Below are positions 27,906-43,629 of a DNA stretch of 64,000 bases, piece by piece. The translations under genes were made by a program, and so were the position numbers. The DNA is taken from the IMG/VR virus record IMGVR_UViG_3300038679_000032, positions 516 to 64,515 of that record; one strand, given 5' to 3'. A model generated the notes under the pieces. That model did not search any database and was not told the origin of the DNA. It saw only the letters and a program-made list of their open reading frames with translations. Source of the stretch: a virus (Duplodnaviria; Caudoviricetes). Position 1 is the stretch's first letter; the number at the start of each line of letters is the position of its first letter.

Positions 27906-28943
27906 TTACAAAACCACCCCCGCATATCCACGGAGAACCGCGTCGAGCCGTGCCATCTGGACGGCGGTGAGTTCTTCGGCAACGAGACACAAGACCGCCA
28001 TTTTCCCCTGTGCTGGATATTCTACCGCCCCGCCAGTTCCGAGGTGATATGGTCCGACAAGAGCCGCCTTGTTTTCCATAGCCACATACGATCCGTTGCT
28101 GGAATCCGTGTCATCCACAGCCACACCATTAAAGAAAAGGTTGATTGCATCCGCCGTCACCCCGGTCCCCTTGGAAAACCCGTATGTAACCCAAACTCCA
28201 CGATATGCGGTTAGTGCGGTGTCATAGATGCGCCCGATGTATGCTCCCGAAACACTATCGTCCCAACAGCGGAAATATAGTTTCTCTCCAGTTAAGTAAA
28301 AATTATATTCCCGGTTTGTTGATCCCGTAGTTGTGTCGTCCTTGGCGAGCAGATATTGCGTGGATGTATATGATGTGTTAAACAATACTATTGCCGAGAA
28401 CGCACTGTCCGCACTCCCGTTCCCGAATGTCAAATCCGCCGCATCGGGGGTGTTCCAGAGATGGGTGGCATCAAATGTCAGATACGGTGCAAGGCCGCTC
28501 ACTCCCGGCGTGCAGGTCGAGGCGTTGATGGCGTTTAGCGAGGCATCCCGTAGCGTCGTGACATGGGTAGTCACCCCGCCGATGGTGCTTCGCTCCGTGA
28601 TGGTGCTTACCGCCCCGGTCTGATCGAAAACGAGGAACAGGCGGATATTCGCCGGGGTGATAATGCCGTAAACTGCGTTTATCATCTGACCCTTGGCGTT
28701 TTCAAACACCCCTTGATGTGGTTGAAGCACCCATCTCTTGTTCCCCCCGTTGGCATCCGGGGCGATGATTCGTGGAGAAGATTCCGTAGCCGCAGAATCA
28801 TCATCGAGGATATAGGTGTATGTGTACCCCCCTACGGTGACATACGCCATGTCCTTGTCGGCAAGACCAGCCCCGTCTATTGCGTCCAATGCCCCGGTTC
28901 CGCCCCCGGTTAATGCTATTGCCGGATATACATATTTAGCCAT
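27906..28943 (-). CDS. Virion/receptor-binding protein with LamG-like C-terminal domain
   Basis: Gly-rich anchor; beta-sandwich pattern (FSAIVLF...YLLAK...W...FFNG). Confidence 0.6.
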   Translation of the reverse strand: MAKYVYPAIALTGGGTGALDAIDGAGLADKDMAYVTVGGYTYTYILDDDSAATESSPRIIAPDANGGNKRWVLQPHQGVFENAKGQMINAVYGIITPANIRLFLVFDQTGAVSTITERSTIGGVTTHVTTLRDASLNAINASTCTPGVSGLAPYLTFDATHLWNTPDAADLTFGNGSADSAFSAIVLFNTSYTSTQYLLAKDDTTTGSTNREYNFYLTGEKLYFRCWDDSVSGAYIGRIYDTALTAYRGVWVTYGFSKGTGVTADAINLFFNGVAVDDTDSSNGSYVAMENKAALVGPYHLGTGGAVEYPAQGKMAVLCLVAEELTAVQMARLDAVLRGYAGVVL

Positions 28944-29148
28944 GTTTCAACTCCTTTTCTCTGTAATACTTCAGTTTAAGGTGCATGCTCTTTGCCATCG
29001 CGGTTGCGATTCGGCACTTCAATTTAATATCTTCGTTATCGGTCAACTTGTAAATATCCCTTAAAGTCTGGCAAATGGAGTGATGCCCCTCATATCGGGT
29101 ATTCTCCATGACTTCTTCGCTTACCGGGGCCACTTTTTTATACGGCAT
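28936..29148 (-). CDS. Small protein with CxTxRDIY domain
   Basis: Paralogous to the C-half of 35615..36049. Confidence 0.65.
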   Translation of the reverse strand: MPYKKVAPVSEEVMENTRYEGHHSICQTLRDIYKLTDNEDIKLKCRIATAMAKSMHLKLKYYREKELKHG

Positions 29149-30088
29149 CGTTCAAGTACCATTCAATGTATTTGTCCAACCCGTCTTGGATCGTGTGCTT
29201 CGGGTCATACCCGAAACTCTCTTTGGCTTTAGTTATGTCTGCGTAAGTCATTGTCGCTTCCCCTTCCATTAAGGGGGCGTGCTTGATTACCGCGTCTTTT
29301 TTTAGGCGGTTCTCAAGGGCAAAGACAAGATCGCTCAGTAAGATCGCCTTCCCGGACCCCAAATTATAAATCTCATATCCGTGCTTTTTAGAAAGTATCT
29401 TCACAATCCCATCCACAACATCATCGACATAAGTAAAATCTCTTTTTACTTCATCCCCGCCGTGAACGGTCATTTCCGCCTTATGGTGAATCAGTCTTGT
29501 AAATAGAGGTATCGCCATATCCGTCCTCTGTCTTGGCCCGTACACCGTGAAGGGCCTGATACAAGCAATGTCCATTTTGTGAAGGTAGTGATAGGTATAG
29601 CAGATAAGTTCCCCAGCTTTCTTAGATGCGGCATAAGGGCAGAGGGGTTCCGTGACAACTTCCGTTTCCTTCCACGGGACATTGGGGTTGTTCCCGTACA
29701 CACTCGAAGAAGAAGCGAAGACGAATCTTTCGACTTCATTCCTCCTGCAAAACTCCAAGACATTCACGGTCCCGGTAATGTTCACATTGGAATGTAAGGC
29801 GGGGTTCTGGACTGATACTCTCACTCCGGCTTGGGCCGCAAGGTGAACCACCGCATCTATCCTCCAACACGAAAACGCCTTTTCAAGACTCATTGGTTCC
29901 GTGACGCTACCAGAAATCAGCTTGAAATTAGGGTTGGAGATGTTATGCTCGATGTTCTTCCACTTCAAAGCCGGGTTGTAGAGATTGTCGAATGAGTCAA
30001 AACAAATCACCCGTTCCCCGTCTTTCAGTAATCGGTCTATCAGGTGCGAGCCGATGAATCCGCAGCCACCTGGGATCAGTATTGTCAC
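29138..30088 (-). CDS. NAD-dependent nucleotide-sugar epimerase/dehydratase (UDP-glucuronate epimerase-like)
   Basis: GGCGFIG, ASSSSVYG, YAASK, FTVYGP. Confidence 0.93.
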   Translation of the reverse strand: MTILIPGGCGFIGSHLIDRLLKDGERVICFDSFDNLYNPALKWKNIEHNISNPNFKLISGSVTEPMSLEKAFSCWRIDAVVHLAAQAGVRVSVQNPALHSNVNITGTVNVLEFCRRNEVERFVFASSSSVYGNNPNVPWKETEVVTEPLCPYAASKKAGELICYTYHYLHKMDIACIRPFTVYGPRQRTDMAIPLFTRLIHHKAEMTVHGGDEVKRDFTYVDDVVDGIVKILSKKHGYEIYNLGSGKAILLSDLVFALENRLKKDAVIKHAPLMEGEATMTYADITKAKESFGYDPKHTIQDGLDKYIEWYLNDAV

Positions 30089-30453
30089 GATTCACTCCTC
30101 TTAAATTTATCGCAGTACCCGTTTACAAAATGTCCGTCTTCGTGCAAATCTAATCTACAACCACCCATATCAGAACCTATCTGCCACTGATAAAAATTAG
30201 CACAATCCTTGCAGTTTTCCTTATATGTGAGTTTCTTTAGGTATTTGACGGGTCTGCATTTACAAAATTCGCTAAAATCAGTAGAGGGCTCATAAGATTC
30301 ACTAAACCCCATATTGTGTGGAAGCACCATAAATCTTCTATAATTTGGGCGACGAATAACTGCTATCAATTTGCATTTTGAACACAACTCAATATACCCA
30401 TCCAGTTTCTCATACTTTTTTTTGTAATACGTCGCTAATTCAAGATTGTTCAC
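30085..30453 (-). CDS. Cys-rich hypothetical protein
   Basis: GTG start overlapping the upstream TGA; GGAGG SD; AT-rich. Confidence 0.55.
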   Translation of the reverse strand: MNNLELATYYKKKYEKLDGYIELCSKCKLIAVIRRPNYRRFMVLPHNMGFSESYEPSTDFSEFCKCRPVKYLKKLTYKENCKDCANFYQWQIGSDMGGCRLDLHEDGHFVNGYCDKFKRSES

Positions 30454-32789
30454 AGTTTCAAATCCTCCCATCCCGGCAATTTATTGACATGAGATTCAGT
30501 CCAGTTCTTACAGGGGTTCCTGAACTTGTCAGGACTCCACCTCGAAGATGTGAGGTTATACTTGTGGCGCACATCCAAGTTGGCAATCTTCGTTTCAAAG
30601 AAGTCGGACTTGTAATCATCGACCCTTTCCGGCCTTCCGTGGGTTCCCGGTTCAAACCCCATTCTCCGGGAGAACCCCACTTCCTCTACCTTCCTCACCC
30701 TTTCTCGATAGTGCTTCAGGAACAACTCCCTGTACGCTACGCATTGGGACACTTTTTTGCAGTCCCAGAAAACGGCATGGCCGTCCGCTTGCCTCACTTG
30801 CCAATTATTTTTATTGTAATAAAACCTGTCTTTACATAACGGTGTGAACTCAAAGTGTTCCGGGGTATAAAGAACATCGTGTTCGCACAGCCAGACGAGT
30901 TCCGTGTCTATCCGTTCAAGACCGGCGAGGATTTGCTTGAACATTGTCAGGTATCCTCGTTCAAGGTTCAGAACAACATTGTCTCCGAACTCAACCGGTT
31001 TAAGTGTGACGGAAACGATAGGGAGGCCCGTGTCGAGAAGTCGTTGCTGAACCATCCTACCCAATCGGTCCTCAATCCTGTTGTCGGAATAATATACAAT
31101 GCCCCGGTCACTATGGGCGGCGGATACAAATTGTCCATTGTCATTTCTCTGTCTTCCCTCCGCCGCAATGGACATTGTTTCGGAGATTTTATGCTTCGTT
31201 TCGTCTGAATGTTTTTTCCCAAGCATTCCGCGTGGGTGGCCCCTGTCGGCCCAGACTGCAATGCCTTGCATTTTTTCGCCATAAAGCCTCACCCTCTCAT
31301 CTGTTTCTTTTGTAAGATTTTTATTCCACGGTGTGTGTCCAATTTTTGAATTGCTTATTTTTTCCTTTATATCGTCAGTCCAAGGGATACCCTTATTCCA
31401 TGCTTCTTTGCCCTTATGAGACTCTCGCATCTTTTCAATAGATTCGGGGGAATGCTTTTTCCCATAAAACCCATTTCCCTCTCCGCTTTGTTGTTGACTC
31501 ATTTTTAGCAAGGAATCTTCAGTATGTTTTCTTCCGAGACTTGAACCAGCTACCGGGTTTATGTTGTACATATTGTCCCATCCGATGTTCTGCGAATATG
31601 TGTCTATAAATTGTTGCTCACAAGAGACAAGATCATTGGGTTTACAAAAAAATTCTATATCAAAAGTAAACGCTTCCTCACCATATTTGTTCCACGATTT
31701 CTGTAAATGATCGTTTTCGTGGTTTCCTTTGTGAAACATTTTTAGGTGCTCCCCAAACCTTCTTGATATGTCGATTGCTGATCCGACATACACCTTTCCG
31801 TTTTTTTTGTTTTTAATAGAATAAACTCCTGCTCGATCAACACGCATTTCATCTTGCAACAGTTTATCCAAATCCCCCTGTGACCACCCAGGGATGGGCC
31901 AAAATTGCTTTATTACCTTAGAAAGTGGATATATCTGTTGTTCCCACTTATTCTCGAAAAACAAATCCCTCGCATATTTTTTTGCACCCTGTATTTGTCT
32001 TCCTGATGCTGGCCAAGGGAACCCAAAATCCCCCCCCTTGGTGCGGAAAAGGTGTGCATACCAAGTGTTATGATTGCAAACAACCACTCCACCAGACAAG
32101 CGTGTTCGCAATGAAACTTCGATCCCCTGTGACCCCCAATTACCAAACTCCTCGTCGCACAGATTCAGTTCGTGATACTTCTCTCTCGTACACATGAAGA
32201 ATGAACCCTGCAAAGACATGGTTTCGGTGAGTTCCCCTTTTCCTTCGGGGCGGGACTTGAACTCCCTGAAGTATTGAAAGTGCGGTTCCGGGTCGAAGCA
32301 GTAAGAAGAACATTGGGGGTTCGCTTTACCAATCCACACAATGTCCTTGTGAAAGTCTGTTTTATTGTCGCACTTAGGACAGTCGGTTGGTCGGTTCCCC
32401 TGATACCTACGGTCCCCGCACTTAGAGCATACCCAGTCAAATACATGGAGGTTCCTCATTACGGGGACCATCGTGAAATTGTCCTGCATCTTGTCCATCA
32501 ACTTAACATCGAATCCTTCATCAAAAGCACAATGAGCGTCTGTTTTAACAAGATATTTTGACTTACTGATACGGGCGGCATAATTTGTTCCCGCCCTCTG
32601 GCCCACCGCTTCGGAGAAGTGTAGTAAGGTCACTTTGGGATTGTCTTTAATAGGCGGGTCCGGCCAGTACCCGTCTAATACAGCTATAATTTCCGTATTC
32701 CCTCTGATGTTTCTGAGAAGGTCTTCCACCGTATTAGACAGGAACTCCTCATTTCGTGCCGGGATTATCACGCTCAAATCATAGATCAT
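30450..32789 (-). CDS. GT2 glycosyltransferase - GIY-YIG endonuclease - second GT-like domain fusion
   Basis: SVIIPARNE and DAHC (GT-A); GVY...YVG plus NUMOD3-like repeats (aa ~315-555); GIVYY...EHDVLY domain. Confidence 0.88.
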   Translation of the reverse strand: MIYDLSVIIPARNEEFLSNTVEDLLRNIRGNTEIIAVLDGYWPDPPIKDNPKVTLLHFSEAVGQRAGTNYAARISKSKYLVKTDAHCAFDEGFDVKLMDKMQDNFTMVPVMRNLHVFDWVCSKCGDRRYQGNRPTDCPKCDNKTDFHKDIVWIGKANPQCSSYCFDPEPHFQYFREFKSRPEGKGELTETMSLQGSFFMCTREKYHELNLCDEEFGNWGSQGIEVSLRTRLSGGVVVCNHNTWYAHLFRTKGGDFGFPWPASGRQIQGAKKYARDLFFENKWEQQIYPLSKVIKQFWPIPGWSQGDLDKLLQDEMRVDRAGVYSIKNKKNGKVYVGSAIDISRRFGEHLKMFHKGNHENDHLQKSWNKYGEEAFTFDIEFFCKPNDLVSCEQQFIDTYSQNIGWDNMYNINPVAGSSLGRKHTEDSLLKMSQQQSGEGNGFYGKKHSPESIEKMRESHKGKEAWNKGIPWTDDIKEKISNSKIGHTPWNKNLTKETDERVRLYGEKMQGIAVWADRGHPRGMLGKKHSDETKHKISETMSIAAEGRQRNDNGQFVSAAHSDRGIVYYSDNRIEDRLGRMVQQRLLDTGLPIVSVTLKPVEFGDNVVLNLERGYLTMFKQILAGLERIDTELVWLCEHDVLYTPEHFEFTPLCKDRFYYNKNNWQVRQADGHAVFWDCKKVSQCVAYRELFLKHYRERVRKVEEVGFSRRMGFEPGTHGRPERVDDYKSDFFETKIANLDVRHKYNLTSSRWSPDKFRNPCKNWTESHVNKLPGWEDLKL
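31110..31850 (-). mobile_element. In-frame GIY-YIG homing endonuclease insert
   Basis: GVYSIKNKKNGKVYVGS, HL..SWNKYG, E...I, YN, repeated GKKHS/WNKG; AT-richer than the flanks. Confidence 0.85.
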
Positions 32790-33508
32790 GCAATATCCTT
32801 CTCATAGCTTAATTTGTGGAACAGCCCCATCGGGTTCGTGTTTCCGTTTATGTTGTATCTTCCTACCGGGAATATGTAAATCTTAGGCCCGACAACAGCC
32901 TTAATGTGGTTCTCTACCGCATACCGATTGAACCTCTGATTGAAGTAACAGTCTTCCCCTCTTTTGGGGTCTGCATGATACCCATACTGACAATACCTTG
33001 CGTTATACCCGCCGAGCTTCCAGAACAGGTCTTTCTTCATGGCCCATGTATTCCCGTGGACGGAAGCATAGGTTCCCCTCACCGAAAGTCTTTTCTCATC
33101 GAACCCGTATGCCTTCAGTATCCCAAGGTCATGTCTCAACCTTCCCCTGATGTCCAAGACGGCTATGTGCCGTGGGAACACCATCTTCTCCCCGGTGAAG
33201 TTATAGACTGTTTCAAGGGCTTCCTTGGAAATGATGTGGTCGATATCGGTCATAAACAGATACTCGCCTTTGGCGTGCTTGGCCCCCATGTTTCGTGCGA
33301 GTCCCTGTGTCCATTTACGGGTGTCGTGGGTTTCCAGAATTGTAAGATTTTTGAGGTAGTTTTTCTTGCTTTTCAGAGGCGGGTCGGAACCGTCGTCAAC
33401 TAAGATAAACTCAATATCATCAGGAAGATTGAGACTCCTGAAATATCTTATCTGCCTTTTGACGGCCCCGTGAGAGTCAAGAACCGGGATGACGACGGAA
33501 ATCTTCAT
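32786..33508 (-). CDS. GT2 glycosyltransferase
   Basis: ISVVIP, VDDGS, ARNMG, TDID, GED. Confidence 0.9.
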   Translation of the reverse strand: MKISVVIPVLDSHGAVKRQIRYFRSLNLPDDIEFILVDDGSDPPLKSKKNYLKNLTILETHDTRKWTQGLARNMGAKHAKGEYLFMTDIDHIISKEALETVYNFTGEKMVFPRHIAVLDIRGRLRHDLGILKAYGFDEKRLSVRGTYASVHGNTWAMKKDLFWKLGGYNARYCQYGYHADPKRGEDCYFNQRFNRYAVENHIKAVVGPKIYIFPVGRYNINGNTNPMGLFHKLSYEKDIA

Positions 33509-33717
33509 CGAGTAGTCCTATTAAAATACTGTTACGTTGTATCGTAAGGTTCATCGCTGCCGCAACACGGGCAGCGCCATAAAACTCATTCACATCCTTT
33601 CTCTAACATTTCTTCTCCTTTATACCCGCACTCAGGACACTCAACTTCTACTTTTACCCATTCAATCTCAGCATAAAAAGCATCAATCTGTTCTAGTTCT
33701 TTTTTGTTTAACATTAT

Positions 33718-34833
33718 TTACCCCCTCGCTTTAGTCTGGAAATCTTCATTAAACCACCTGTCAATCAATTCACAAATATAATTTGTTTCTTGTTCTGTCA
33801 CCCACCATCCGCACGGAATACAGACATGAAACTCATCGAACCAGTCCACCCCCGGAAGGGGGGTCTTACTGTCCCTGAAGATAGTCTTTGTGTCGTTCCT
33901 GTCGTGGACTCTTGAACACTCTACCCCGTTTAACTTCATGTATTGGATGAACCTGTCCGGTTCTTCTATGATAACGGTATAAAGCCAATAAGAGGATTTC
34001 CTGTGGGCCAGTTCCGACAGTCCAAAACACTTATTCAACCTTTGTGCATTAAGGCGGCTCTTTTCAATCCGTTGTTCAAGTCCTCTTGAATTAGCCAGAC
34101 CTATAGAGGCAAGGACATCGTTCATCTGCCACTTGTATCCCACAACAGGGGGGTCTTGATTGCACCGCATATCGGCACCCTTATCTCTATCCAGCCCGAA
34201 CCATCTCATCATTCGGGCATCTTCGCATTGACTCTTTGCCCACATCTGGTGCCCGTTGATGCAGAGAAATCCCCCATCTACTGTCGTCAAATGCTTTATA
34301 GCCTGAGTTGAAAACGCAACATAGGTCGCCTGATTGCCCACCTTGACACCTTTATACTCAGCACCAATGGCTTGACAGGCATCCTCTATTAAAGGCACTC
34401 CATACTTCACGGACAGGGCCATGAGTTCATCCAACATGCACGGCTTCCCGCCCCAATCCATGCACATCATAGCTTTTACTTTTTGCTTGGAAAGAATCTT
34501 CCCTACTTCTCTGGGGTCTATCGTTCCATCCATCATAATGTCCGCCCATACCGGAGTGGCCCCGACATTTAAGATGGAAGTATTCGAGGCCAAACAGGTC
34601 ATTGGAGTGGAAAGCACCTTATCCCCCGGCCCCACCCCGGCGAGTTTCAACGCTAAGGTAATCGCGGAAGTGCCGGAGTTCACGATGACGCAGTTATGGT
34701 TCCCGATATATTCCCCGAACCATTTTTCCAATTCTCTTGACTTCGGCCCCTCTCCAATATATCCCGAATGAAGCACCGGGAGGATGAAGTCGGAAACATC
34801 AGGAGCCATATAAACTTTGAATAATGGGATCAC
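33718..34833 (-). CDS. DegT/DnrJ/EryC1/StrS PLP sugar aminotransferase
   Basis: NSGTSA, IEDACQA, FSTQAIKHLTTVDGG. Confidence 0.93.
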   Translation of the reverse strand: MIPLFKVYMAPDVSDFILPVLHSGYIGEGPKSRELEKWFGEYIGNHNCVIVNSGTSAITLALKLAGVGPGDKVLSTPMTCLASNTSILNVGATPVWADIMMDGTIDPREVGKILSKQKVKAMMCMDWGGKPCMLDELMALSVKYGVPLIEDACQAIGAEYKGVKVGNQATYVAFSTQAIKHLTTVDGGFLCINGHQMWAKSQCEDARMMRWFGLDRDKGADMRCNQDPPVVGYKWQMNDVLASIGLANSRGLEQRIEKSRLNAQRLNKCFGLSELAHRKSSYWLYTVIIEEPDRFIQYMKLNGVECSRVHDRNDTKTIFRDSKTPLPGVDWFDEFHVCIPCGWWVTEQETNYICELIDRWFNEDFQTKARG

Positions 34834-35654
34834 TTTAATTCCTCATAGTATTTAGCAACCTTTTCTATGTGGTATTCTTCGGCCTTTTTAAGCCCTACTT
34901 CCGCAAGATGCTTATACAGTCTCGGTTCATCCCTCAATTCAAGGGTGAATCTAAATAAATCGTCTACAGTATAGACTGGGAAGAAGCATAGTTCAAACTC
35001 AGCCCTATAGTTATCTTCCCCATAGCTCACCGTCGGTATCCCGAATGAGGCCGCATTAGCCAATTTTAGAGGGTTGTGCAGTTGTGCGTGCATCCCCTTT
35101 ACATGGGGCCGCCAACAGATTTGAATGTCTATCCCCCTATAAAAATCAATCACATCCCCTCTTGTAGTAAAATCTTCCGTCCAGACGAAGTTCATCCCTT
35201 CTTTTAAGAATCTCAGTCTCGTTTCTTCCGGGTCCAAATTGAACCCTTTCATCACCCCGATAACCCCTACGGTGGTCACGCTTCGGTCTGGCCGTAGCTC
35301 TCGTTCAAAGTTGCAATGATGTTCCGGTATGAAAACAACCTTCTTCTTGAGGACTTCAGAAAGATACCTCTGCCCCGTGAGGGAAGTTGAAATAACCCCG
35401 CAAGAGGGATGCTCCTTACACCATCCGACCAATCCGCACCCATCAACCACATCCACAAAGGATTTTTTGGGATAATGAACAGGCGGTTGCATTTTGACAT
35501 AAATACATACATCATCTTCATACCCCTCTTGAGGGTTCAACCTGGCCCCCAAATAAGTCCCTATCTGCCTACCCCTTATCTCCCCGGACCCTGTTTTGTT
35601 GAAGAAAAAGGAAATCACCTGTTCACCTTTAGACTTCGTTTCCTGAGTTGCCAA
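34830..35654 (-). CDS. GT-B (GT4-like) glycosyltransferase
   Basis: KLANAASFGIPTV C-terminal signature. Confidence 0.7.
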   Translation of the reverse strand: MATQETKSKGEQVISFFFNKTGSGEIRGRQIGTYLGARLNPQEGYEDDVCIYVKMQPPVHYPKKSFVDVVDGCGLVGWCKEHPSCGVISTSLTGQRYLSEVLKKKVVFIPEHHCNFERELRPDRSVTTVGVIGVMKGFNLDPEETRLRFLKEGMNFVWTEDFTTRGDVIDFYRGIDIQICWRPHVKGMHAQLHNPLKLANAASFGIPTVSYGEDNYRAEFELCFFPVYTVDDLFRFTLELRDEPRLYKHLAEVGLKKAEEYHIEKVAKYYEELK

Positions 35655-36049
35655 TCTTCCCTTGAATCATGCCCCACCGGATACCCGGCTTCGGTAAGCA
35701 TCTCCTTGTAGTCTGATAATGCGGAATACATATTCTTCGCCATCCTCACCGCCATCCGTGCCCACAACTTGATTTCCGGGTCTTCCGTCCTCATGTATAT
35801 GTCCCGTATCGTGGAACACAAATTATCCCGTCCAAAATACTTCGGCAATTCCATTCGACTCTCTGGGAATGGGATGATGATTCTCTTGTCCGTCCCTTCC
35901 GTGAACACATACTCACCCCTCTGTCTTTCCAGAACAGTCAAATGCTCCCCGGTAAAGACCTTTTCGGGTATCCCGTGAGGGAAGGCGAAACAGTAATTCC
36001 TCCCCCTCCTGATACCCCTGTAATGCTTGCAGACTAAACACTTTTCCAA
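35615..36049 (-). CDS. Two-domain protein: Cys-rich AFPxGIP domain plus CxTxRDIY domain
   Basis: CLVCKH...CFAFPHGIP; CSTIRDIY...MAKNM. Confidence 0.65.
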   Translation of the reverse strand: MEKCLVCKHYRGIRRGRNYCFAFPHGIPEKVFTGEHLTVLERQRGEYVFTEGTDKRIIIPFPESRMELPKYFGRDNLCSTIRDIYMRTEDPEIKLWARMAVRMAKNMYSALSDYKEMLTEAGYPVGHDSREDWQLRKRSLKVNR

Positions 36050-36642
36050 TGCTTCACCAAAATGTATTCCGGCTCAATGGCCCTTGTAATGTAAAAGGCT
36101 CTGAGATTGTTCGCCAAAGTGTACGCATCAACGGCTTTTACGACCCCCGTTTCAAACAGATTGCAGTATCCCCTACCTGTAATCAATCCTCCCTGCTTCA
36201 CCCTTCTCCCCCATTCAATGAGGTCCATCGAAACAGCATTGAAGTCCCTCTGTGAATCAATGTAAACAAAGTCAAGCGAATTGTCCTCAAACTGTTTCGC
36301 CGCTACGAGGCTCTTGAATCTTTTGAATTGCGCCCTCTCCCCGTATTTATCAAGCCTCCTGTGGGCGTCTATGCAATGCTCCCCCGCTTTCGGGCCGTCC
36401 CAAGCATCCACAAGATGAAGCGTCAAGTCCGGGTTCGCAGATAACATCATGTCTGAAAACACCCCGCGATCCACCCCTATTTCCGCACCCACCTTGAACT
36501 TCAGGTCGGCAAACAGTTCCGCAAGAAGTTTCCTCCCCGTATTCGGGTCGCCCAAGTTGTGCCTTCCGGTCCCGATCCAGCACAGAATCGGCGGTTCCGC
36601 CACCCTCTGCACCCCCATCTTCTTCCTGATTATATCTTCCAT
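36034..36642 (-). CDS. Class I SAM methyltransferase (Methyltransf_24-like)
   Basis: GAEIGV..G, VDAW, LDFVYID. Confidence 0.85.
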   Translation of the reverse strand: MEDIIRKKMGVQRVAEPPILCWIGTGRHNLGDPNTGRKLLAELFADLKFKVGAEIGVDRGVFSDMMLSANPDLTLHLVDAWDGPKAGEHCIDAHRRLDKYGERAQFKRFKSLVAAKQFEDNSLDFVYIDSQRDFNAVSMDLIEWGRRVKQGGLITGRGYCNLFETGVVKAVDAYTLANNLRAFYITRAIEPEYILVKHWKSV

Positions 36643-36643
36643 T

Positions 36644-37240
36644 TCACCCCTCCTTAACAAACCACCAGGTATGTTCCTTCTCCCTTGTTATGTACCATTG
36701 CTTGATATTGTTCGCCATCGTGTAGGCATCAACGGCCCTCACTACACCCCCTTGAAAAAAATTGTAATAATCATGCCCCGATACAATCCCGCCTACCTTA
36801 ACTTTTGGGGTCCATGCAATTATATCCTCAAGGACAAAGGGATAGTCGTGACGCCCGTCTATGTATATGAAATCCAAAGAGTTATCCTCAAAATCCTTCA
36901 CGGCATCCATGCTCATTTTCTTGATTAAGACGGCGTCTTTGTCTTTGAGTTTCCTCACGCACCTTTGATAATAGACTTCCTGTGAATGGTCCGTTACCCT
37001 CAGATACGCCCCCCACGGGTCTATACAGTAGAGTTTCAGGTTCGGGACACGGGCGAAAATAGCTGAAGCGTTTGTTCCCATTCTTACCCCTATTTCCGCC
37101 CCGACGGTAAATCCCAACTCCCCCCACAGTTCATACAGGGTTTCTCTGGTAGAGTTCCACCACCCCTCAAAGGGCAGATTGTCCCCCGGATGAACATGGA
37201 ACTTCTTCCAGATGGCCCGTGTCGTATCTCTTGGTTTCAT
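36644..37240 (-). CDS. Class I SAM methyltransferase (Methyltransf_24-like)
   Basis: GAEIGV..G, IDPW, LDFIYIDGRH, GGIVSGHDY. Confidence 0.9.
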   Translation of the reverse strand: MKPRDTTRAIWKKFHVHPGDNLPFEGWWNSTRETLYELWGELGFTVGAEIGVRMGTNASAIFARVPNLKLYCIDPWGAYLRVTDHSQEVYYQRCVRKLKDKDAVLIKKMSMDAVKDFEDNSLDFIYIDGRHDYPFVLEDIIAWTPKVKVGGIVSGHDYYNFFQGGVVRAVDAYTMANNIKQWYITREKEHTWWFVKEG

Positions 37241-37875
37241 TTAACCCTCCTCAAATATCCTTTTGGATTCCATGTGATGAAAAAGTTTTCCTTTGTCCGG
37301 TCTATTTCGTATTCAGGATGTTCCTGAATAAAGGTTTCAATCGCCTCATAAGGGCCGGGTTCCGGTCCCGCACTCACCCCATGCCTTGAATTACTATCCT
37401 CTACAATGAAGTAATCCCCCACGGAAACCATCGGAGAATAAGTGTTTAGAACATTCAATGTGTTCTCGTAAGTATGGGAACTGTCCTCGATGACCATGAC
37501 TCTTTTCCCCTGAATCATATTGCTTACAAGGTGTGCGGGTTCCGCACAGGCATCCCCTTCAAGGAAGAAGATACGGGGGTGCAAAAGTGCCATTTCATGG
37601 ACACGTTTCAATGAGGAGTCTATACTATAGACTATTCCATGCCCCATCAAATCACAAATATGGGCCAGAGCCAAACTCGACCCGCCCTGTCCACACCCGA
37701 TTTCAACAATGACATCCGGCTCCCTCTCCACGATGATTTCCCGGTATGTCCAGAAGTCCATCGGGGATTTGGAACAATGAATCCCAAAGTAAGTCGTGTT
37801 CCTCACGATTCTCTTTTGCATTATATTTAATACATATTTCAATCTCAGATTGAGATTGTCTTCCATATAGGTCAT
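37237..37875 (-). CDS. CmcI-family (rhamnosyl O-)methyltransferase
   Basis: K.P.D.W.Y.EII...PD.IVEIG..GGS; DSSH; YFIVED. Confidence 0.88.
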   Translation of the reverse strand: MTYMEDNLNLRLKYVLNIMQKRIVRNTTYFGIHCSKSPMDFWTYREIIVEREPDVIVEIGCGQGGSSLALAHICDLMGHGIVYSIDSSLKRVHEMALLHPRIFFLEGDACAEPAHLVSNMIQGKRVMVIEDSSHTYENTLNVLNTYSPMVSVGDYFIVEDSNSRHGVSAGPEPGPYEAIETFIQEHPEYEIDRTKENFFITWNPKGYLRRVK

Positions 37876-38825
37876 TCTTTACCCCATAACTCATTGTAAA
37901 GGTCACGATGCTTCCAATTATTAAAATAGTAATCGTATTGATTTTCCCATCCTTCCGGCCATCCGTCTAACGGCTGAAACTTGTCTATGAGCCACTTCAG
38001 GGGTCTTGTCTGTTTGGGCCATTTATTGTTCATCCAGTAGTCTACATTATAGACTTCGCTCATTATCTTGTGTCTTTTGGAAAGGTGCCAATCCCCTTCC
38101 TTCCATGTTTTCCCTTTGTGGAGGTGGGCATACCAACACGCCTTATTGATAATAACCCTCCCCCCCTCCATGAGCCATGTCTTGAAATCAAGCTCTATGG
38201 CTTCATCATACATGATGTAGTGGTTGTCCTCGTCAAGCCCTTCAATGTATTCCCAATGGGAACGGGTCATAAAGTAGCACGATCCCTGAAAGATCATCAA
38301 ATCGTCTATCTTGGGGCGTCGTTTATGAGTTTCCGGCCACCAGTAAGAACCGACCAATCCCTGAGGCCCATGCCACTTCGTCCCGTGGAACCCGGTTCCG
38401 AACAAATCATGGCAGTCAAACGGGAAGGTGAGATACATATAATTTATCGGCCCACGAGTCCTCTCCCATTTCACCGGGTCCAGGGAATATCTCGATGGAA
38501 TGGAAATCCAATGCTCCCCCGCATGGTGCTTTTTCAGGGCGACATCCCATCCCGGCATGAGGGCGCAATGGTCATCCAGCTTCATAATGTATTTGCCTTT
38601 GGATAACTTGACCCCCCTATTGATGGAGTCACGCATACCCAAAGGCTGTCCTTTATGGACTATGGTGAGGTTTGGATTGTCTTTCGGGAGGGGGGATGGC
38701 CACCAGTCGTCAAGCATCATAATGACTTCTACCGGCCCATGCGCGTTTGCGAAGATGTCATCCACCGTTTTAGAGGCGAATTGACAAGTTCTGCTCGGAA
38801 TTATCACGGAGACTTCGGGTGTCAT
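37872..38825 (-). CDS. GT2 glycosyltransferase
   Basis: VSVIIPSR, KLDDHC; paralogous to the N-domain of 30450..32789. Confidence 0.88.
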   Translation of the reverse strand: MTPEVSVIIPSRTCQFASKTVDDIFANAHGPVEVIMMLDDWWPSPLPKDNPNLTIVHKGQPLGMRDSINRGVKLSKGKYIMKLDDHCALMPGWDVALKKHHAGEHWISIPSRYSLDPVKWERTRGPINYMYLTFPFDCHDLFGTGFHGTKWHGPQGLVGSYWWPETHKRRPKIDDLMIFQGSCYFMTRSHWEYIEGLDEDNHYIMYDEAIELDFKTWLMEGGRVIINKACWYAHLHKGKTWKEGDWHLSKRHKIMSEVYNVDYWMNNKWPKQTRPLKWLIDKFQPLDGWPEGWENQYDYYFNNWKHRDLYNELWGKE

Positions 38826-38880
38826 GCCGTTTTCCTTTCAGACATTATAACGATTACCCCCTTGTAATGCAAGAAATTTT

Positions 38881-41800
38881 TTATGTTTTTGTTGTCGCAA
38901 CCTGCACCGCACCCATCAAGGGCTGGTCAACTACTTGAATACTTGTAGCAATCGGGGCGGCGACTAATTCAACATCTTCAACTATCGGACCCGCAACTCT
39001 TAAAATATCCTGAACGGTTGGATAAGCTACCCGGGTGATTTCCTTTACTGACGGAACCGTAGCGGATACCGGGCCAATTTCCGGGTGCGCTACCAGGCTG
39101 ATATTAGAGGGACGCGGGTAGGCGATCCTGCTTACACCGGAAGGTTTAATGTGAATCCACGGCGTAGGTGAAGGGGACGGGGACTCACTTGGGCTCTCCG
39201 AGGGGGAACCGGAAGGGCTTTTAGACGGAGAAGCCGATGCACTTGGGCTCAGACTTGGAGAGGCTGAGGGGCTCAGGCTGGGGCTCTGGCTTGGTGAACC
39301 ACTCGGGCTTGCACTCGGGGACAGAGACGGACTCTGCGTCGGTGAGGCCGAGGGGCTCGCGGAGGGGGACAGGCTCGGACTCTCACTCGGGCTGGCAGAG
39401 GGGCTCAGGCTCGGTGATTCGCTTGGACTCGCGGATGCCGAAGGACTTAGGCTTGGGCTTTCGCTTGGGCTAAGGCTCGGGGACTGGCTTGGCGATTCTG
39501 ATGGTGAGGCCGAAGGGCTCTCACTCGGGCTTTCGCTTGGCGAAACCGAGGGACTCTCCGAAGGACTCGCAGAAGGAGAGAGGCTCGGTGACTCACTCGG
39601 GGAAGCCGAGGGGCTTTCCGATGGCGACTCGGAAGCAGACGGTGAAAGACTCGGGGACTCCGATGGACTTTCCGAAGGGCTTGGGGTTCCCGCCGCCGAG
39701 GGGCTTTCACTCGGACTCTCGCTTGGTGATTCGGACGGACTTTCCGAATGGCTCTGACTCGGGCTTTCGGAAGGGCTTTCCGAGGGGCTAAGGCTTGGGC
39801 TCTCCGAGGGCGATTCCGAGGGCGACTCGCTTGGGCTCAAGCTCGGACTTTCAGAAGGGGATTCTGACGCACTTGGGCTGAGTGAGGGGGACTCACTCGG
39901 GCTTTCTGATGGACTCAGCGACGGCGATTCGGAAGGCGATTCACTTGGGCTCTCGCTCGGTGATTCACTTGGACTTGCCGAAGGACTCTCTGATGGGCTC
40001 TCAGAGGGGCTTTCGGAAGCGGACGGACTTAGACTCGGGCTTTCGCTCGGAGACTCGCTGGGGCTTAATGAAGGGCTTTCAGAAGGTGATTCTGAAGGCG
40101 ACAGACTCGGACTCTCTGACGGCGAAGCTGAAGGTGATGGACTGAACCCTGCCGAAGGTGACGGTGAAGGACTTTCACTCGGGGATTCGCTTGCACTCGG
40201 GGAGAGGCTCGGACTTTCCGACGGCGACTCCGAGGGAGATTCAGAAGGGGAAAGACTGAGGCTTTCCGATGGTGAGGCGCTCGGGCTCTCCGAAGGTGAT
40301 TCAGAAGGGCTTGCCGAGGGCGAAACACTTGGGCTCTCCGAAGGGCTTTCCGAAGCCGAAGGACTTAGGCTTGGACTTTCGGAAGGGCTCTCGCTGGGAG
40401 ATTCTGATGGGCTCTCCGAAGGGCTTTCCGAGGGAGACTCAGAAGGGCTTAATGAAGGCGACTCCGAAGGACTCTCTGACGGTGATTCGCTTGGACTTTC
40501 CGAGGGGCTCAGGCTCGGACTTTCGCTTGGAGAGGCCGAAGGACTTAGGCTTGGACTCTCTGAGGGGCTTGCAGACGGCGATTCAGAGGCCGAAGGGGAA
40601 AGGCTTGGCGACTCACTCGGACTCTCGGAAGGACTTGCTGAAGGGCTAACAGAAGGTGATTCTGAGGGGCTTTCAGACGCAATCTCCCCTATTCTCAGGA
40701 CAACATCTTCGACATACTGCACCGTTGCAGATGAAGGAGATGGGGAGGGTGATTCACTCGGACTCTCCGAAGGGGACTCCGAGGGGCTTTCACTTGGACT
40801 TTCTGAGGCCGAAGGAGAAACACTTGGCGATGCAGAGGGACTCTCCGAGGGGCTCTCGGACGCACTTTCCGAGGGCGATTCCGAGGCACTTTCCGAAGGG
40901 GATTCCGAGGGCGACTCCGAAGGGCTTTCGCTTGCCGACGGAGAAACGGACGGGCTCTCGCTTGGACTCTCCGACGGACTTTCACTCGGGGATTCGCTTG
41001 CACTCGGGCTCTGGCTTGGGCTTTCAGAGGGGCTCTCGGATGGCGAAGCACTCGGACTTAACGAAGGGCTTTCGCTGGGGCTCTCCGAGAAACTCGCACT
41101 TGGAGACGCAGAAGGTGATGCGCTTGGGGATGCCGAGGCCGAAGGGGAAAGGCTCGGCGACTCACTCGGACTTTCTGAAGGCGACGCTGAGGGGCTAGCG
41201 GAAGGTGAGGCACTTGGACTTGCCGAAGCACTTTCCGACGCTCCAGGCTGTTTGAATGCCGCAACAATCATTACCGAGTTTGAATCGGTTTGGGCAAGCG
41301 CAGAGAAGGTTCCGGTGGTTCCTGAATTGACCTTAATTGCGTCTGCTATGAATAACCCGACATCCGCCCCGGTATTACTTCCTTCGTCTTGCCGTTCCTG
41401 CCATGTATTGTTAGCCGGTTCCGTAGTGGGGGCAACAGTTCCGTTTGAAGCCACGCTTGGTGCCGTTGCCGCATCCATCGTTGTTGTTGTGGAGTTGTCC
41501 CCGTGGGCAATCATCGCCACAAGGAGTTCATTTGCACCAGCGGTGCTTATCGCTGTCCCGGTGGGTTCAGTTACGGACCCGGCTTGGGTGGTCGAACTCG
41601 TATCATAGGGGGTGGATGTGTTCCCACGATAGGTAACTGTTCGGCCCATCGCAACATCGCCAGCGGTCCGGGTAAAGACATAACTTGGGGGACTTGCACC
41701 CCTGATGCAATACCACATCCCCCCGGAAGCGACACCATTACTTGAATCCGTATCCCCGGCGTAGAGTTGCCCGATCTGAGTCCATTCCGCAGAAGGCTTG

Positions 41801-41937
41801 GTAATCTGAGTGTTGGACCGGAACGCAATACAAGCAACAATCAAATCACCCGTAGTGGTCCCCGTAGGCTCAGCAAGGGTGATGTTGCCGCCATCCTGTA
41901 TGACCTGCGTTCCTAATGCTATGATTTCCCAAGCCAT
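38881..41937 (-). CDS. Virion fibre-like protein with very long Ser-Pro repeat
   Basis: ~230 aa beta-rich N-domain, ~690 aa (SPSX)n, C-terminal 11-aa repeats. Confidence 0.8.
39165..41240 (-). repeat. (Ser-Pro-Ser-X)n coding repeat, block 1
   Basis: Translation; short unique interruption near 40680-40735. Confidence 0.95.
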
Positions 41938-43208
41938 TACAGGGTTGACTCCACTTTAATCTGCACGAACCCTAAAGAATTAAACGGGTTTGCATACAGG
42001 TTCCAATCCGCCGCTTCACACGCAACCCTTGTCGCCCCGTGTCTATAGTATAGACTCACCGCATCCCCCGCCCGATACACATTCATCAGTAAGGTGACAG
42101 ACCCCAATCCGGTTTCGCACACTTCAGAGGTCATGTCCTCACCCGCTTCAAGGGCCAATCGTTCCTCATCCCCGGAGTTCTGAATCTCCCCGGTCCCCGT
42201 CCAATGGTCCTGAAATGGGAATATGTTTTCCTCCAAGACATCCGTAACATGGCCCCAACACACCTCCCCCACAGGGGCAGACGGTGAGGCACTCGGACTC
42301 TCGGAAGGACTCGCGCTGGGAGAAGCGGAAGGGCTGGCACTTGGACTCGCAGAAGGAGAAGCCGAGGGTGATAAAGAAGGACTCTCACTTGGGCTGGCCG
42401 AAGGGGAAAGACTCGGACTGGCCGAAGGGCTTTCCGAAGGGGAGGCACTTGGCGACGCACTTGGACTTGCCGACGCACTTGGGGACAGACTCGGGCTTTC
42501 GCTTGGACTCTCTGATGGCGACGCCGAAGGACTTAACGAAGGAGAAGCACTTGGGCTTGCCGAAGCCGAAGGTGAAAGACTCGGACTCTCCGAGGGACTT
42601 TCCGAGGGGCTTGCGGAAGGCGACGCTGAAGGACTTGCACTTGGGGACGCACTCGCCGAGGGGCTAAGACTTGGGCTTTCCGAAGGACTTTCTGATGGAC
42701 TCTGGCTCGGTGAAGCACTTGGGGAAGCCGAAGGGCTAAGGCTCGGACTTGCTGACGGCGACTCAGAAGGGGAAGCGGACGCTGAAGGACTTAGACTCGG
42801 TGACTCACTCGGAGATTCTGAAGGGCTCGCACTTGGGCTGAGGGACGGGGAAGCACTCGGGCTGGCCGATGGCGACGCAGACGGAGATGCCGAAGGAGAG
42901 GCAGAGGGGGAAGCTGACGGGCTCGCAGACGCAGAAGGACTTAGACTCGGACTTTCAGACGGGCTCTCGCTGGGACTAAGGCTCGGTGACGCGCTGGGCG
43001 AAGCGGAAGGAGATGCGCTGGGGCTTGCCGAGGGGGAAGCCGACGGTGAGGCTGAAGGTGACGCCGACGGGGACGCACTTGGGCTTGCGCTCGGTGAGGC
43101 TGAAGCACTCGGGCTGAGAGAAGGGCTACCGCCGTATTCCTGATACCATTGGACATCGGCACGGTCTAACCAATCTACATCAGCAGTTGAACGCCATTGA
43201 ACATCCAT
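41937..43208 (-). CDS. Ser-Pro repeat virion protein
   Basis: Short N-terminus, ~280 aa repeat, ~115 aa beta-rich C-domain. Confidence 0.8.
42280..43128 (-). repeat. (Ser-Pro-Ser-X)n coding repeat, block 2
   Basis: Translation. Confidence 0.95.
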
Positions 43209-43275
43209 CGTCGTCCTATAAAAATGGGGGCCGTAGGAATAAGACCCCCATTCTTCATTCCGGGGCCATCACCCC

Positions 43276-43620
43276 TTAACTCGTCACTTGCTGAACAATC
43301 GTCACCGTGCCTTCCAGTAGCCGTGTCACGGTCCCGCCAAGCTCCGTCAATTCGCAATCCCAATACCCGGACCAGTAAGTGAATGTTTCCGTGACAGCGG
43401 CGGCCATTGTCAAGGTGATTACCGAGGTGGTCGTGTCTATCGCGGCGGTGAAATCTATCGAGGAAGTGGAATCCTTCGTTTCCCTCACGGAAGCGGCACA
43501 GGAAGCCCCGGTAAGGTCATAGAGTTCACCATCCTCATCCACGACGGTGAACTCTATCCCAAAATCCGCCCCTTCTTCGATCCGGTAATCCTTTTTCAAA
43601 TTAAGTGTGGTTGCAGGCAT
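43276..43620 (-). CDS. Small Ig-like tail protein (BppU-N-like)
   Basis: IEEGADF...YDLTG...W..Y.D.EL...LLEG.V. Confidence 0.6.
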   Translation of the reverse strand: MPATTLNLKKDYRIEEGADFGIEFTVVDEDGELYDLTGASCAASVRETKDSTSSIDFTAAIDTTTSVITLTMAAAVTETFTYWSGYWDCELTELGGTVTRLLEGTVTIVQQVTS

Positions 43621-43629
43621 TCTATCCTC

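What the first reader, a model, noticed from the sequence alone, without database searches (positions are those of the whole stretch)
30450..32789. GIY-YIG homing endonuclease fused in frame inside a glycosyltransferase, with no intein or intron
A ~245-aa GIY-YIG + NUMOD3-like segment (~31110-31850) sits between the GT2 domain and a second GT-like domain with no stop codon. The GT2 domain ends where its paralogue 37872..38825 ends (W..Q..PL..VI..F.P..GW). There is no Cys/Ser-start or His-Asn-Cys/Ser/Thr splice motif and no room for non-coding intron structure. Inference: a homing endonuclease that stays harmless by landing in an interdomain linker, a splicing-free route to intragenic homing that yields a GT-nuclease-GT chimera.
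Basis: partly seen in the sequence, partly recalled or inferred. Interest (0 to 1): 0.75.

Follow-up and report, generated by a model that had tools for sequence, protein, structure and literature searches.

The report
Unspliced homing endonuclease inside phage glycosyltransferase
A selfish DNA-cutting gene (a GIY-YIG homing endonuclease) sits in frame in the flexible linker of a two-domain phage glycosyltransferase with no intron or intein to remove it, and about twenty diverged relatives share this layout, so it looks like a real, recurrent, splice-free way for such a gene to live inside another gene.

Summary
Window 30450-32789 (-) is one 779-aa ORF with four parts:
- GT2 domain, residues 1-302.
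- 12-residue linker.
- I-TevI-like GIY-YIG + NUMOD3 homing endonuclease (HEG), residues 315-555, with all catalytic residues present.
- Second GT-A-fold domain ("CT"), residues 562-779.

About 1,400 relatives have GT2 joined directly to CT through a variable 2-64-aa linker; this is the empty site. I found no group I/II intron (Rfam), no Hint or intein motifs, and no internal Shine-Dalgarno.

The layout is not a one-off. Nine full-length GT2-HEG-CT proteins, three fragments and about ten GT2-HEG-stop proteins share the same upstream junction, with HEG identity of 40-65%.

Evidence for mobility:
- These HEGs form one well-supported clade.
- They are scattered on the GT2 tree (at least 6 changes), and the HEG and GT2 trees disagree.
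- The last ~30 GT2 codons look co-converted.
- HEG GC3 is 0.39 against 0.54-0.60 in the flanks.

The same linker elsewhere holds a free-standing HNH gene that splits the host gene. One relative carries a canonical intein at another site plus this HEG.

Closest precedents are the ShiLan element, fungal mitochondrial rps3-LAGLIDADG fusions and phage "genes in pieces". I rate it a new variant of a known kind. Earlier scan notes report in-frame nuclease cassettes of other families on other DNA. Translation as a fusion and nuclease activity are inferred, not shown.

The parts
30450..32789 (-). Whole 779-aa ORF (P0001), GT2-HEG-CT chimera. Its ATG overlaps the stop of the upstream GT2 gene 32786-33508, and its end overlaps the next ORF 30085-30471.
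31884..32789 (-). GT2 (GT-A) glycosyltransferase domain, residues 1-302, with a DAH (DxD-type) motif and a CxxC...CxxC ribbon; pLDDT above 90.
   Evidence: Pfam PF00535; alignments; AF2
31884..31979 (-). GT2 tail, residues 271-302. This is a co-conversion-like tract that resembles other HEG-bearing alleles (QIYPLSKVI.QFWPIPGW) more than the otherwise closest empty alleles (QKYPLSWLL.KFWPVPGW). GC3 over residues 271-314 is intermediate (0.455).
31848..31883 (-). N-side remnant of the natural linker, residues 303-314.
31125..31847 (-). Homing endonuclease module, residues 315-555. It begins at Met315, the position where free-standing relatives start. GC3 is 0.386 against 0.54-0.60 in the flanks.
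31560..31832 (-). GIY-YIG catalytic domain, residues 320-410. Y323, Y334, R344, H348, H357, E391 and N408 match I-TevI Y6, Y17, R27, H31, H40, E75 and N90. pLDDT above 90.
   Evidence: I-TevI residue numbers beyond position 76 are from my own knowledge.
31125..31559 (-). NUMOD3-repeat DNA-binding region, residues 411-555, predicted flexible (pLDDT 42-78).
31107..31124 (-). Six-residue C-side junction, residues 556-561. There is no stop, no Met and no His-Asn.
30453..31106 (-). C-terminal GT-A-fold domain ('CT'), residues 562-779, with an invariant EHD motif. It has no Pfam family.
   Evidence: AF2 pLDDT 96; Foldseek PDB hits to GT-A enzymes, TM 0.45-0.53; alignment A4
37872..38825 (-). Stand-alone GT2 paralogue (317 aa, 35% identical). 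It shows that the GT2 module also works as a separate polypeptide.

Best explanation
This is an I-TevI/Seg-like GIY-YIG + NUMOD3 homing endonuclease gene from a lineage specialised on one family of phage glycosyltransferase genes. It has entered the DNA that encodes the linker between the GT2 domain and the second GT-A domain, and it is in frame at both junctions. Nothing removes it, so the ribosome most likely reads straight through and makes a GT2-nuclease-GT three-module protein. The host tolerates this for two reasons. The linker is naturally variable in length. The two GT modules also work as separate or differently ordered polypeptides in related phages. The nuclease probably cuts HEG-less alleles in co-infecting phages near the end of the GT2 coding region. 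Repair then copies the cassette across, the cassette being the GT2 3' end plus the in-frame HEG. Shown here: ORF continuity, domain identities, the empty site, recurrence of the layout, patchy and incongruent phylogeny, the upstream co-conversion-like tract, foreign composition, and the absence of intron and intein features. Inferred: translation as a fusion, nuclease activity and target site, and retained GT activity.
For: (1) One ORF with GT2, GIY-YIG, NUMOD3 and a GT-A C-terminal domain. (2) About 1,400 GT2-CT proteins lack the insert, with linkers of 2-64 aa. (3) Nine full-length GT2-HEG-CT proteins are known: P0001, P0128, P0129, P0133, P0137, P0138, P0262, P0263 and P0264. There are also fragments P0131, P0132 and P0148 and about ten GT2-HEG-stop proteins. 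All share the junction PGW-x12-[MLIVK]-x5-G[IV]Y. (4) Catalytic residues are intact and conserved. (5) The GT-associated HEGs form one clade (SH-aLRT 96) apart from other free-standing HEGs. Fused, stop-terminated and free forms are intermixed inside it. (6) HEG presence needs at least 6 changes on the GT2 tree, and P0001 nests (96) among 6 empty alleles. P0128 and P0129 pair on the HEG tree (96), but their GT2 domains lie in different supported clades. (7) In residues 271-302, P0001 is 65% identical on average (maximum 84) to HEG+ alleles and 53% (maximum 69) to empties. This reverses the order seen in residues 1-270. There is no such signal on the CT side. (8) GC3 is 0.386 in the HEG against 0.54-0.60 in the flanks and neighbouring genes. 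(9) A displaced remnant of the original GT2 3' end lies just after the HEG in L058. (10) P0133 and P0262 keep the frame although their HEG has lost its DNA-binding part. P0140 has Lys at the Met315 position, so at least there the HEG can only be made as a fusion. (11) The AF2 model shows three confident modules joined by low-confidence segments, pTM 0.58.
Against: No expression, cleavage or glycosylation data exist, and the phage is uncultured. Met315 is retained here and in about half of the relatives, so internal initiation giving a HEG-CT protein cannot be excluded. Against that, no Shine-Dalgarno or promoter-like signal precedes it. A free N-terminus may matter for GIY-YIG activity, and this is untested. 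The patchy distribution could partly reflect repeated loss rather than gain. The trees are fasttree/quick grade, and DNA for most relatives could not be fetched.
Confidence: 0.75

Rival explanations
1. This is a polyprotein that is separated after or during translation. Either host or phage proteases cut the disordered Lys/Arg-rich NUMOD3 region, or ribosomes also start at Met315. The working products would then be GT2(-GIY), HEG(-CT) and CT rather than one chimera.
For: Residues 411-559 are predicted disordered. Met315 sits exactly where free-standing relatives P0143, P0145 and P0146 start, and P0148 is called as a HEG-CT protein starting there. GT2 and CT work as separate genes in L032, L037 and L058.
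Against: There is no SD or promoter-like signal before Met315. The position is L/I/V in 7 relatives and Lys in P0140. There is no conserved cleavage motif. CT has no start of its own here.
Confidence: 0.15
2. The nuclease has been domesticated. The GIY-YIG module has been recruited for a phage function linked to the enzyme, such as degrading host or competitor DNA, and is no longer a selfish homing element.
For: Catalytic residues are conserved across 40-65% divergence. The fusion has persisted over long evolutionary distances.
Against: The module is present in only about 1% of family members and is scattered on the host gene tree. Decaying copies exist (P0133, P0262). Its composition is foreign. 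It shows co-conversion and remnant footprints typical of homing. The neighbourhood points to protein glycosylation, not DNA chemistry.
Confidence: 0.07
3. An unrecognised splicing element, either an atypical intron whose core overlaps the ORF or a non-Hint protein-splicing module, removes the segment.
For: None directly. The ShiLan authors also could not fully exclude splicing for their element (PMC11855218).
Against: The Rfam scan at E<=10 found no intron family. The insert is filled end to end by HEG-homologous protein sequence that matches free-standing HEGs up to 1-4 residues from their stop. No conserved nucleophile or His-Asn lies at the junctions. P0140 shows what a real intein looks like in this family, Cys...HN|C with Hint Pfam hits.
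Confidence: 0.02
4. An assembly or sequencing artefact has merged three genes.
For: The genome is metagenome-assembled, and the exact protein was seen on one contig only.
Against: Eight other full-length in-frame GT2-HEG-CT proteins come from independent samples at 40-60% identity. Both junctions would need errors that also preserve the frame.
Confidence: 0.01

Closest known systems
ShiLan element in actinobacteriophage DNA methylase genes (Arsenault, Gosselin & Gogarten 2025, PMC11855218)
   Same: It is a homing-type insertion inside a phage enzyme gene that leaves the host frame free of stops. It has no detectable intron or intein features, is patchily distributed, and is thought to stay in the protein as a tolerated extra segment.
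   Different: There the HNH endonuclease is read in another frame, and the host-frame product is a meaningless loop. Here the endonuclease is in the host frame and is made as a folded domain of the enzyme. The nuclease family (GIY-YIG), the host gene (glycosyltransferase) and the site (interdomain linker) also differ.
Fungal mitochondrial rps3-LAGLIDADG in-frame fusions, and GIY-YIG ORFs fused to the 3' ends of mitochondrial genes (Gibb & Hausner 2005 as cited in PMC7902536; Sethuraman et al. 2009 and Paquin et al. 1994 from my own knowledge)
   Same: The HEG coding sequence is fused in frame to a host coding sequence without its own splicing element. The cassette brings its own copy of the host gene end and leaves a displaced remnant, as seen in L058 here.
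   Different: Those cases are organellar, mostly LAGLIDADG, and usually at or near the C-terminus with the displaced part re-created. Here a phage HEG sits internally between two catalytic domains and is read through into the second one.
Phage 'genes in pieces': free-standing HEGs that split nrdA (Aeh1 mobE), topoisomerase gene 39/60 (T4 mobA) and gene 43 (PMC2988022)
   Same: A free-standing-type phage HEG sits inside a host enzyme gene at a position where the two halves can still work. Locus L032 of this family is a true example, with a NUMOD3+HNH gene between a GT2 ORF and a CT ORF.
   Different: In those cases the HEG has its own start and stop, and the host protein is made as two polypeptides. 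In the window there are no stops, and a single polypeptide is predicted.
I-TevI and Seg endonucleases (GIY-YIG + NUMOD3/zinc finger/HTH; PDB 1mk0, 1ln0)
   Same: It shares the same catalytic domain (E 8e-11 to the I-TevI catalytic domain). The order is the same, with the nuclease N-terminal and an extended DNA-binding region C-terminal. The size is the same, about 240 aa.
   Different: I-TevI lies in a self-splicing group I intron, and Seg proteins are intergenic. Both are translated as independent proteins.
Inteins carrying homing endonucleases
   Same: Both are in-frame intragenic residence of a HEG. Relative P0140 has one, with a LAGLIDADG endonuclease, in the GT2 domain of the same family.
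   Different: Here there are no Hint domain, no splice-junction residues and no room for them.

Membership tests
GIY-YIG homing endonuclease (I-TevI/Seg-like) | GIY-YIG catalytic domain with the conserved Tyr, Tyr, Arg, His, Glu and Asn residues | tested here: met
   Pfam PF01541 E 6.6e-10. phmmer to the I-TevI catalytic domain 1mk0 gives E 8e-11. Y323, Y334, R344, H348, H357, E391 and N408 are present and conserved in relatives.
GIY-YIG homing endonuclease (I-TevI/Seg-like) | C-terminal modular DNA-binding region (NUMOD3 repeats) | tested here: met
   Pfam PF07460 x3, E 9e-15. PHROG homing endonuclease families match at E 9e-32.
GIY-YIG homing endonuclease (I-TevI/Seg-like) | Sporadic presence among otherwise homologous host genes, with incongruent phylogeny | tested here: met
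   About 20 of about 1,400 family members carry it. At least 6 changes are needed on the GT2 tree. The HEG and GT2 trees disagree for P0128/P0129.
GIY-YIG homing endonuclease (I-TevI/Seg-like) | Co-conversion of flanking host sequence | tested here: met
   Seen on the upstream side only. In residues 271-302 identity is 65% to HEG+ alleles and 53% to empties, the reverse of residues 1-270. GC3 is intermediate. A displaced GT2 3' remnant lies in L058.
GIY-YIG homing endonuclease (I-TevI/Seg-like) | Site-specific cleavage of the HEG-less allele | not testable with these tools
   This needs an in vitro cleavage assay.
Intein | Hint splicing domain (blocks A, B, F, G) flanking the endonuclease | tested here: not met
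   There is no Hint or Intein_splicing hit in P0001, although the same scan finds them in relative P0140. HEG homology fills the insert to within 6 residues of CT.
Intein | Cys/Ser at the intein start, and His-Asn followed by Cys/Ser/Thr at the end | tested here: not met
   The junctions read ...QDE|MRVDRAG and ...FVSAAHSD|RGIVYY. No nucleophile is conserved across 9 relatives.
Group I / group II intron | Conserved catalytic RNA core detectable by covariance model | tested here: not met
   The Rfam 15 E-value scan of 29500-33500 returned only two chance-level hits to unrelated families.
Group I / group II intron | Non-coding structured sequence around the ORF | tested here: not met
   The insert is about 735 nt and is entirely HEG coding sequence.
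Free-standing HEG splitting a gene ('genes in pieces') | HEG with its own start, stop and RBS; host gene made as two ORFs | tested here: not met
   There is no stop at either junction and no SD before Met315. The feature is met in related locus L032 with an HNH gene.
GT2 (GT-A) glycosyltransferase | Pfam Glycos_transf_2 domain with a DxD-type motif | tested here: met
   PF00535 E 1.3e-12. DAH is nearly invariant.
GT-A fold nucleotide-sugar transferase (C-terminal domain) | Rossmann-like GT-A fold with an acidic metal/nucleotide motif | tested here: inconclusive
   The AF2 model has pLDDT 96. Foldseek finds 96 PDB hits at E<=1e-3, nearly all GT-A enzymes or nucleotidyltransferases, but TM is only 0.45-0.53. 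An E-H-D motif is invariant. There is no Pfam family.

The most novel reading that the evidence does not exclude
Splice-free, in-frame residence in an interdomain linker is a genuine third lifestyle for homing endonucleases, beside introns/inteins and intergenic free-standing genes. In this reading the nuclease has given up its own translation signals and is made only as a domain of the host enzyme. It stays an active, mobile nuclease while the host enzyme keeps working. The cassette (host-gene tail plus in-frame HEG) can move between differently organised host genes, both GT2-CT fusions and stand-alone GT2 genes.
Probability: 0.5. Interest if true: 0.72.

Novelty: new variant of a known kind. 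Interest (0 to 1): 0.62.

Why it matters
Homing endonucleases are thought to survive inside genes only by hiding in self-splicing introns or inteins, or by splitting the gene. This family shows a fourth solution in phages: being translated as an extra domain in a tolerant linker. It comes with a natural series of states in one gene family: the empty site, a free-standing HNH gene splitting the gene, GT2-HEG with a stop, the full in-frame insertion, decaying in-frame copies, and a canonical intein elsewhere in the same gene. That series makes the evolutionary transitions between HEG lifestyles directly comparable. It also offers a natural N-terminally tethered GIY-YIG nuclease, which is relevant to engineered Tev fusions. 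Finally, it is a caution for annotation, since such chimeras get labelled 'group I intron endonuclease' or plain 'glycosyltransferase'.

Tried and rejected
- **Close phage relatives:** Megablast of 28000-36000 against GenBank phages found no match. tblastn of the whole protein there found only free-standing HEGs, no GT fusion.
- **Fetching DNA for relatives:** I therefore could not fetch DNA for P0128, P0129, P0137, P0138, P0133, P0140, P0145 or the closest empty allele P0008. This ruled out a nucleotide-level map of the insertion site, dN/dS, reading the codon at the Met315 position, and the context of the free-standing relatives.
- **Cellular genomes:** A genome-contig scan with the HEG alignment found nothing. 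The scan is pattern-limited, so this is weak evidence of absence from cellular genomes.
- **Introns:** The Rfam scan for introns was negative.
- **Internal expression signals:** I looked for a Shine-Dalgarno before Met315 and found none that was consistent in four loci. Promoter- and terminator-like sites were not above shuffled expectation.
- **P0027 insert:** I tested whether the 213-aa insert of close relative P0027 is a decayed HEG. There was no similarity, and it is low-complexity.
- **Longer relatives:** I first suspected that P0003, P0004, P0005 and P0016 carried other inserts. They have two tandem CT domains instead.
- **Residue correction:** My first residue count put the internal Met at 313. 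It is Met315.
Full report
**What is there**

The window is almost all of a 64.5-kb IMG/VR virus record that CheckV rates complete. Positions 30450-32789 on the minus strand are one 779-aa ORF with no stop. It is packed into an operon. Its ATG overlaps the stop of the upstream GT2 gene (32786-33508), and its end overlaps the next ORF.

Pfam finds Glycos_transf_2 at residues 6-106, GIY-YIG at 320-400 and three NUMOD3 motifs from 419. PHROGs homing-endonuclease families cover residues 314-546.

The last 220 residues have no Pfam family. An AlphaFold model built on 35 homologues has pLDDT 96. Foldseek matches it almost only to GT-A glycosyltransferases and related nucleotidyltransferases: alpha-1,3-GalT, WrtF, SpsA, PBCV-1 A64R and KdsB, with TM 0.45-0.53. 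An E-H-D motif is invariant. The host protein is therefore a two-module GT-A enzyme.

The surroundings are a sugar island: a DegT aminotransferase, three methyltransferases, an NDP-sugar epimerase/dehydratase and further GT2 genes. It lies next to proteins with long Ser/Pro repeats.

**The empty site**

A search with the C-terminal domain returned 1,398 proteins. Nearly all are 510-600 aa, with GT2 joined directly to this domain. Eight of the closest, at 62-70% identity, align to P0001 on both sides and lack residues ~313-560, which fall in their variable linker. Across 120 relatives the linker is 2-64 aa long. In 34 of 36 viral contigs the two modules are contiguous in one frame.

**No splicing element**

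An Rfam E-value scan of 29500-33500 returned only two chance-level hits to unrelated families, and no intron. The insert is about 735 nt and is filled by HEG-homologous sequence. Free-standing relatives (P0143, P0145, P0146) start exactly at the position of Met315 and stop 1-4 residues after the G-x-F that corresponds to residues 552-554. Only six residues then separate the HEG from the start of CT.

There is no Hint domain, and no conserved Cys/Ser/Thr or His-Asn at the junctions. Relative P0140 gives a useful contrast. It has a textbook intein (Cys start...HN|C end, Hint and LAGLIDADG Pfam hits) at the first Cys of the GT2 zinc ribbon. It also has this same GIY-YIG module after the GT2 domain.

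**It is recurrent**

Searching the HEG region among long proteins found 16 more GT2 + GIY-YIG + NUMOD3 proteins. An exhaustive phmmer search of a junction-spanning fragment against 1.84 billion representatives added three more. The forms are:
- **Full-length GT2-HEG-CT (nine):** P0001, P0128, P0129, P0133, P0137, P0138, P0262, P0263 and P0264.
- **Fragments of the same (three):** P0131, P0132 and P0148.
- **GT2-HEG followed by a stop (about ten).**

HEG identities to the window are 40-65%. The upstream junction is fixed in all of them: PGW, twelve linker residues, one residue that is M/L/I/V (K in P0140), five residues, then G-I/V-Y.

In P0133 and P0262 the HEG has lost its DNA-binding part, yet the frame into CT is kept. 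This is what one expects if CT can only be made by reading through.

**Evidence that it is, or recently was, mobile**

- **One clade.** The GT-associated HEGs form one supported clade (SH-aLRT 96) apart from other GIY-YIG/NUMOD3 genes. Inside it, internal, stop-terminated and free forms are intermixed.
- **Scattered on the host tree.** On a tree of 131 GT2 domains, HEG presence needs at least six changes. P0001 sits in a supported (96) group with six empty alleles.
- **Incongruent trees.** P0128 and P0129 are sisters on the HEG tree (96), but their GT2 domains lie in different supported clades.
- **Co-conversion-like tract.** In residues 1-270, P0001 is closer to empty alleles (mean 64%, maximum 79%) than to HEG-bearing ones (59.5%, maximum 71%). 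In residues 271-302 this flips, to 53% (maximum 69%) for empties against 65% (maximum 84%) for HEG-bearing alleles. The HEG-bearing alleles share QIYPLSKVI.QFWPIPGW where empties have QKYPLSWLL.KFWPVPGW. No such switch occurs on the CT side.
- **Foreign composition.** GC3 is 0.386 in the HEG and 0.455 in residues 271-314 (the GT2 tail plus the 12-residue linker). It is 0.54 in the GT2 body, 0.59 in CT and 0.55-0.60 in neighbouring genes.
- **Displaced remnant.** In L058 (a 140-kb contig) the GT2-HEG ORF is followed at once by a leftover of the original GT2 3' end, which finishes with its own stop.

Together these suggest the mobile unit is the GT2 tail plus the in-frame HEG. The unit occurs in two host contexts. 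One is at the 3' end of stand-alone GT2 genes, where a CT-like gene lies upstream (L037, L057, L058). The other is inside GT2-CT fusion genes, as in the window.

**Other occupants of the same linker**

In L032 a free-standing NUMOD3 + HNH gene lies between a GT2 ORF with a stop and a CT ORF. That CT ORF has its own ATG and a Shine-Dalgarno inside the HNH gene's 3' end. This is a classic gene-in-pieces arrangement. The linker is therefore a preferred landing place for more than one HEG family.

**How it most likely works**

The full-length AlphaFold model gives three confident modules: residues 1-315, 320-410 and 560-779, each with pLDDT above 90. They are joined by low-confidence segments, with pTM 0.58. 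The NUMOD3 region, which in I-TevI is ordered only on DNA, acts as a long tether.

No Shine-Dalgarno or promoter-like site precedes Met315, although other genes of this phage reportedly use strong SD junctions. I therefore favour simple read-through producing a GT2-nuclease-GT chimera (confidence 0.75). Internal initiation or proteolysis are lesser, non-exclusive possibilities.

All seven catalytic residues are present and conserved, so the nuclease is probably active. Its target, inferred from the co-conversion tract, should lie in the DNA for the GT2 tail or linker of HEG-less alleles. None of this has been tested experimentally.

**Comparison with known systems**

- **Phage 'genes in pieces'** (PMC2988022) share the idea of a HEG sitting where a host enzyme tolerates interruption, but there the HEG has its own start and stop.
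- **Fungal mitochondrial rps3-LAGLIDADG fusions** (PMC7902536, citing Gibb & Hausner 2005) share the in-frame fusion without splicing.
- **The ShiLan element** (PMC11855218) is the closest phage precedent. It is an unspliced homing insertion that keeps a methylase frame open, but its HNH is read in another frame.

I found no paper describing an in-frame GIY-YIG module between two catalytic domains of a phage enzyme. The library does not cover subscription journals.

Earlier notes of this scan report in-frame DUF559 cassettes in bacterial genes and a LAGLIDADG-IbrB fusion on other DNA. These are similar in spirit. I did not check them.

**Verdict**

This is a new variant of a known kind. Interest is 0.62.

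Noticed in passing
P0140 (relative found; no window coordinates): One family member carries both a canonical intein (Cys127...IIHN|C, with Hint and LAGLIDADG domains) at the first Cys of the GT2 CxxC ribbon and the in-frame GIY-YIG module after the GT2 domain. The residue at the Met315 position is Lys there.
   Followed up: partly
L032:3411-5651: The same linker is occupied by a free-standing NUMOD3+HNH gene (4424-5002) that splits the enzyme into a GT2 ORF and a CT ORF. CT starts at ATG 4992, with an AAGAGGAAG Shine-Dalgarno inside the HNH gene's end.
   Followed up: yes
L058:4722-4838 and L037:9897-10181: Leftover fragments of a GT2 3' end lie downstream of the GT2-HEG gene. They look like footprints of cassette insertion. 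In L037 the fragment is 2.4 kb away, behind three other ORFs, which I did not explain.
   Followed up: partly
P0027 (relative; no window coordinates): A close relative of the window's GT has a 213-aa low-complexity insert of unknown origin in the same linker. It shows no similarity to the HEG.
   Followed up: partly
P0003, P0004, P0005, P0016; P0035, P0048, P0064, P0070: Other family members have two tandem C-terminal GT-A domains, or an extra CT-like piece in front of GT2. In L037, L057 and L058 a stand-alone CT-like gene precedes the GT2 gene. The modules are evidently shuffled freely.
   Followed up: partly
window 27906-44712: Sugar island: epimerase/dehydratase 29138-30088, GT2 32786-33508, DegT 33718-34833, methyltransferases 36034-37875 and GT2 paralogue 37872-38825. 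It lies next to three proteins with long Ser/Pro ('PT repeat') tracts at 38881-44712, and it looks like a virion O-glycosylation system.
   Followed up: partly
L037:8333-9850 and L058:4845-7337: Related phages also place LamG-like or other proteins with hundreds of residues of (SPSx)n repeats directly after the GT cluster.
   Followed up: no
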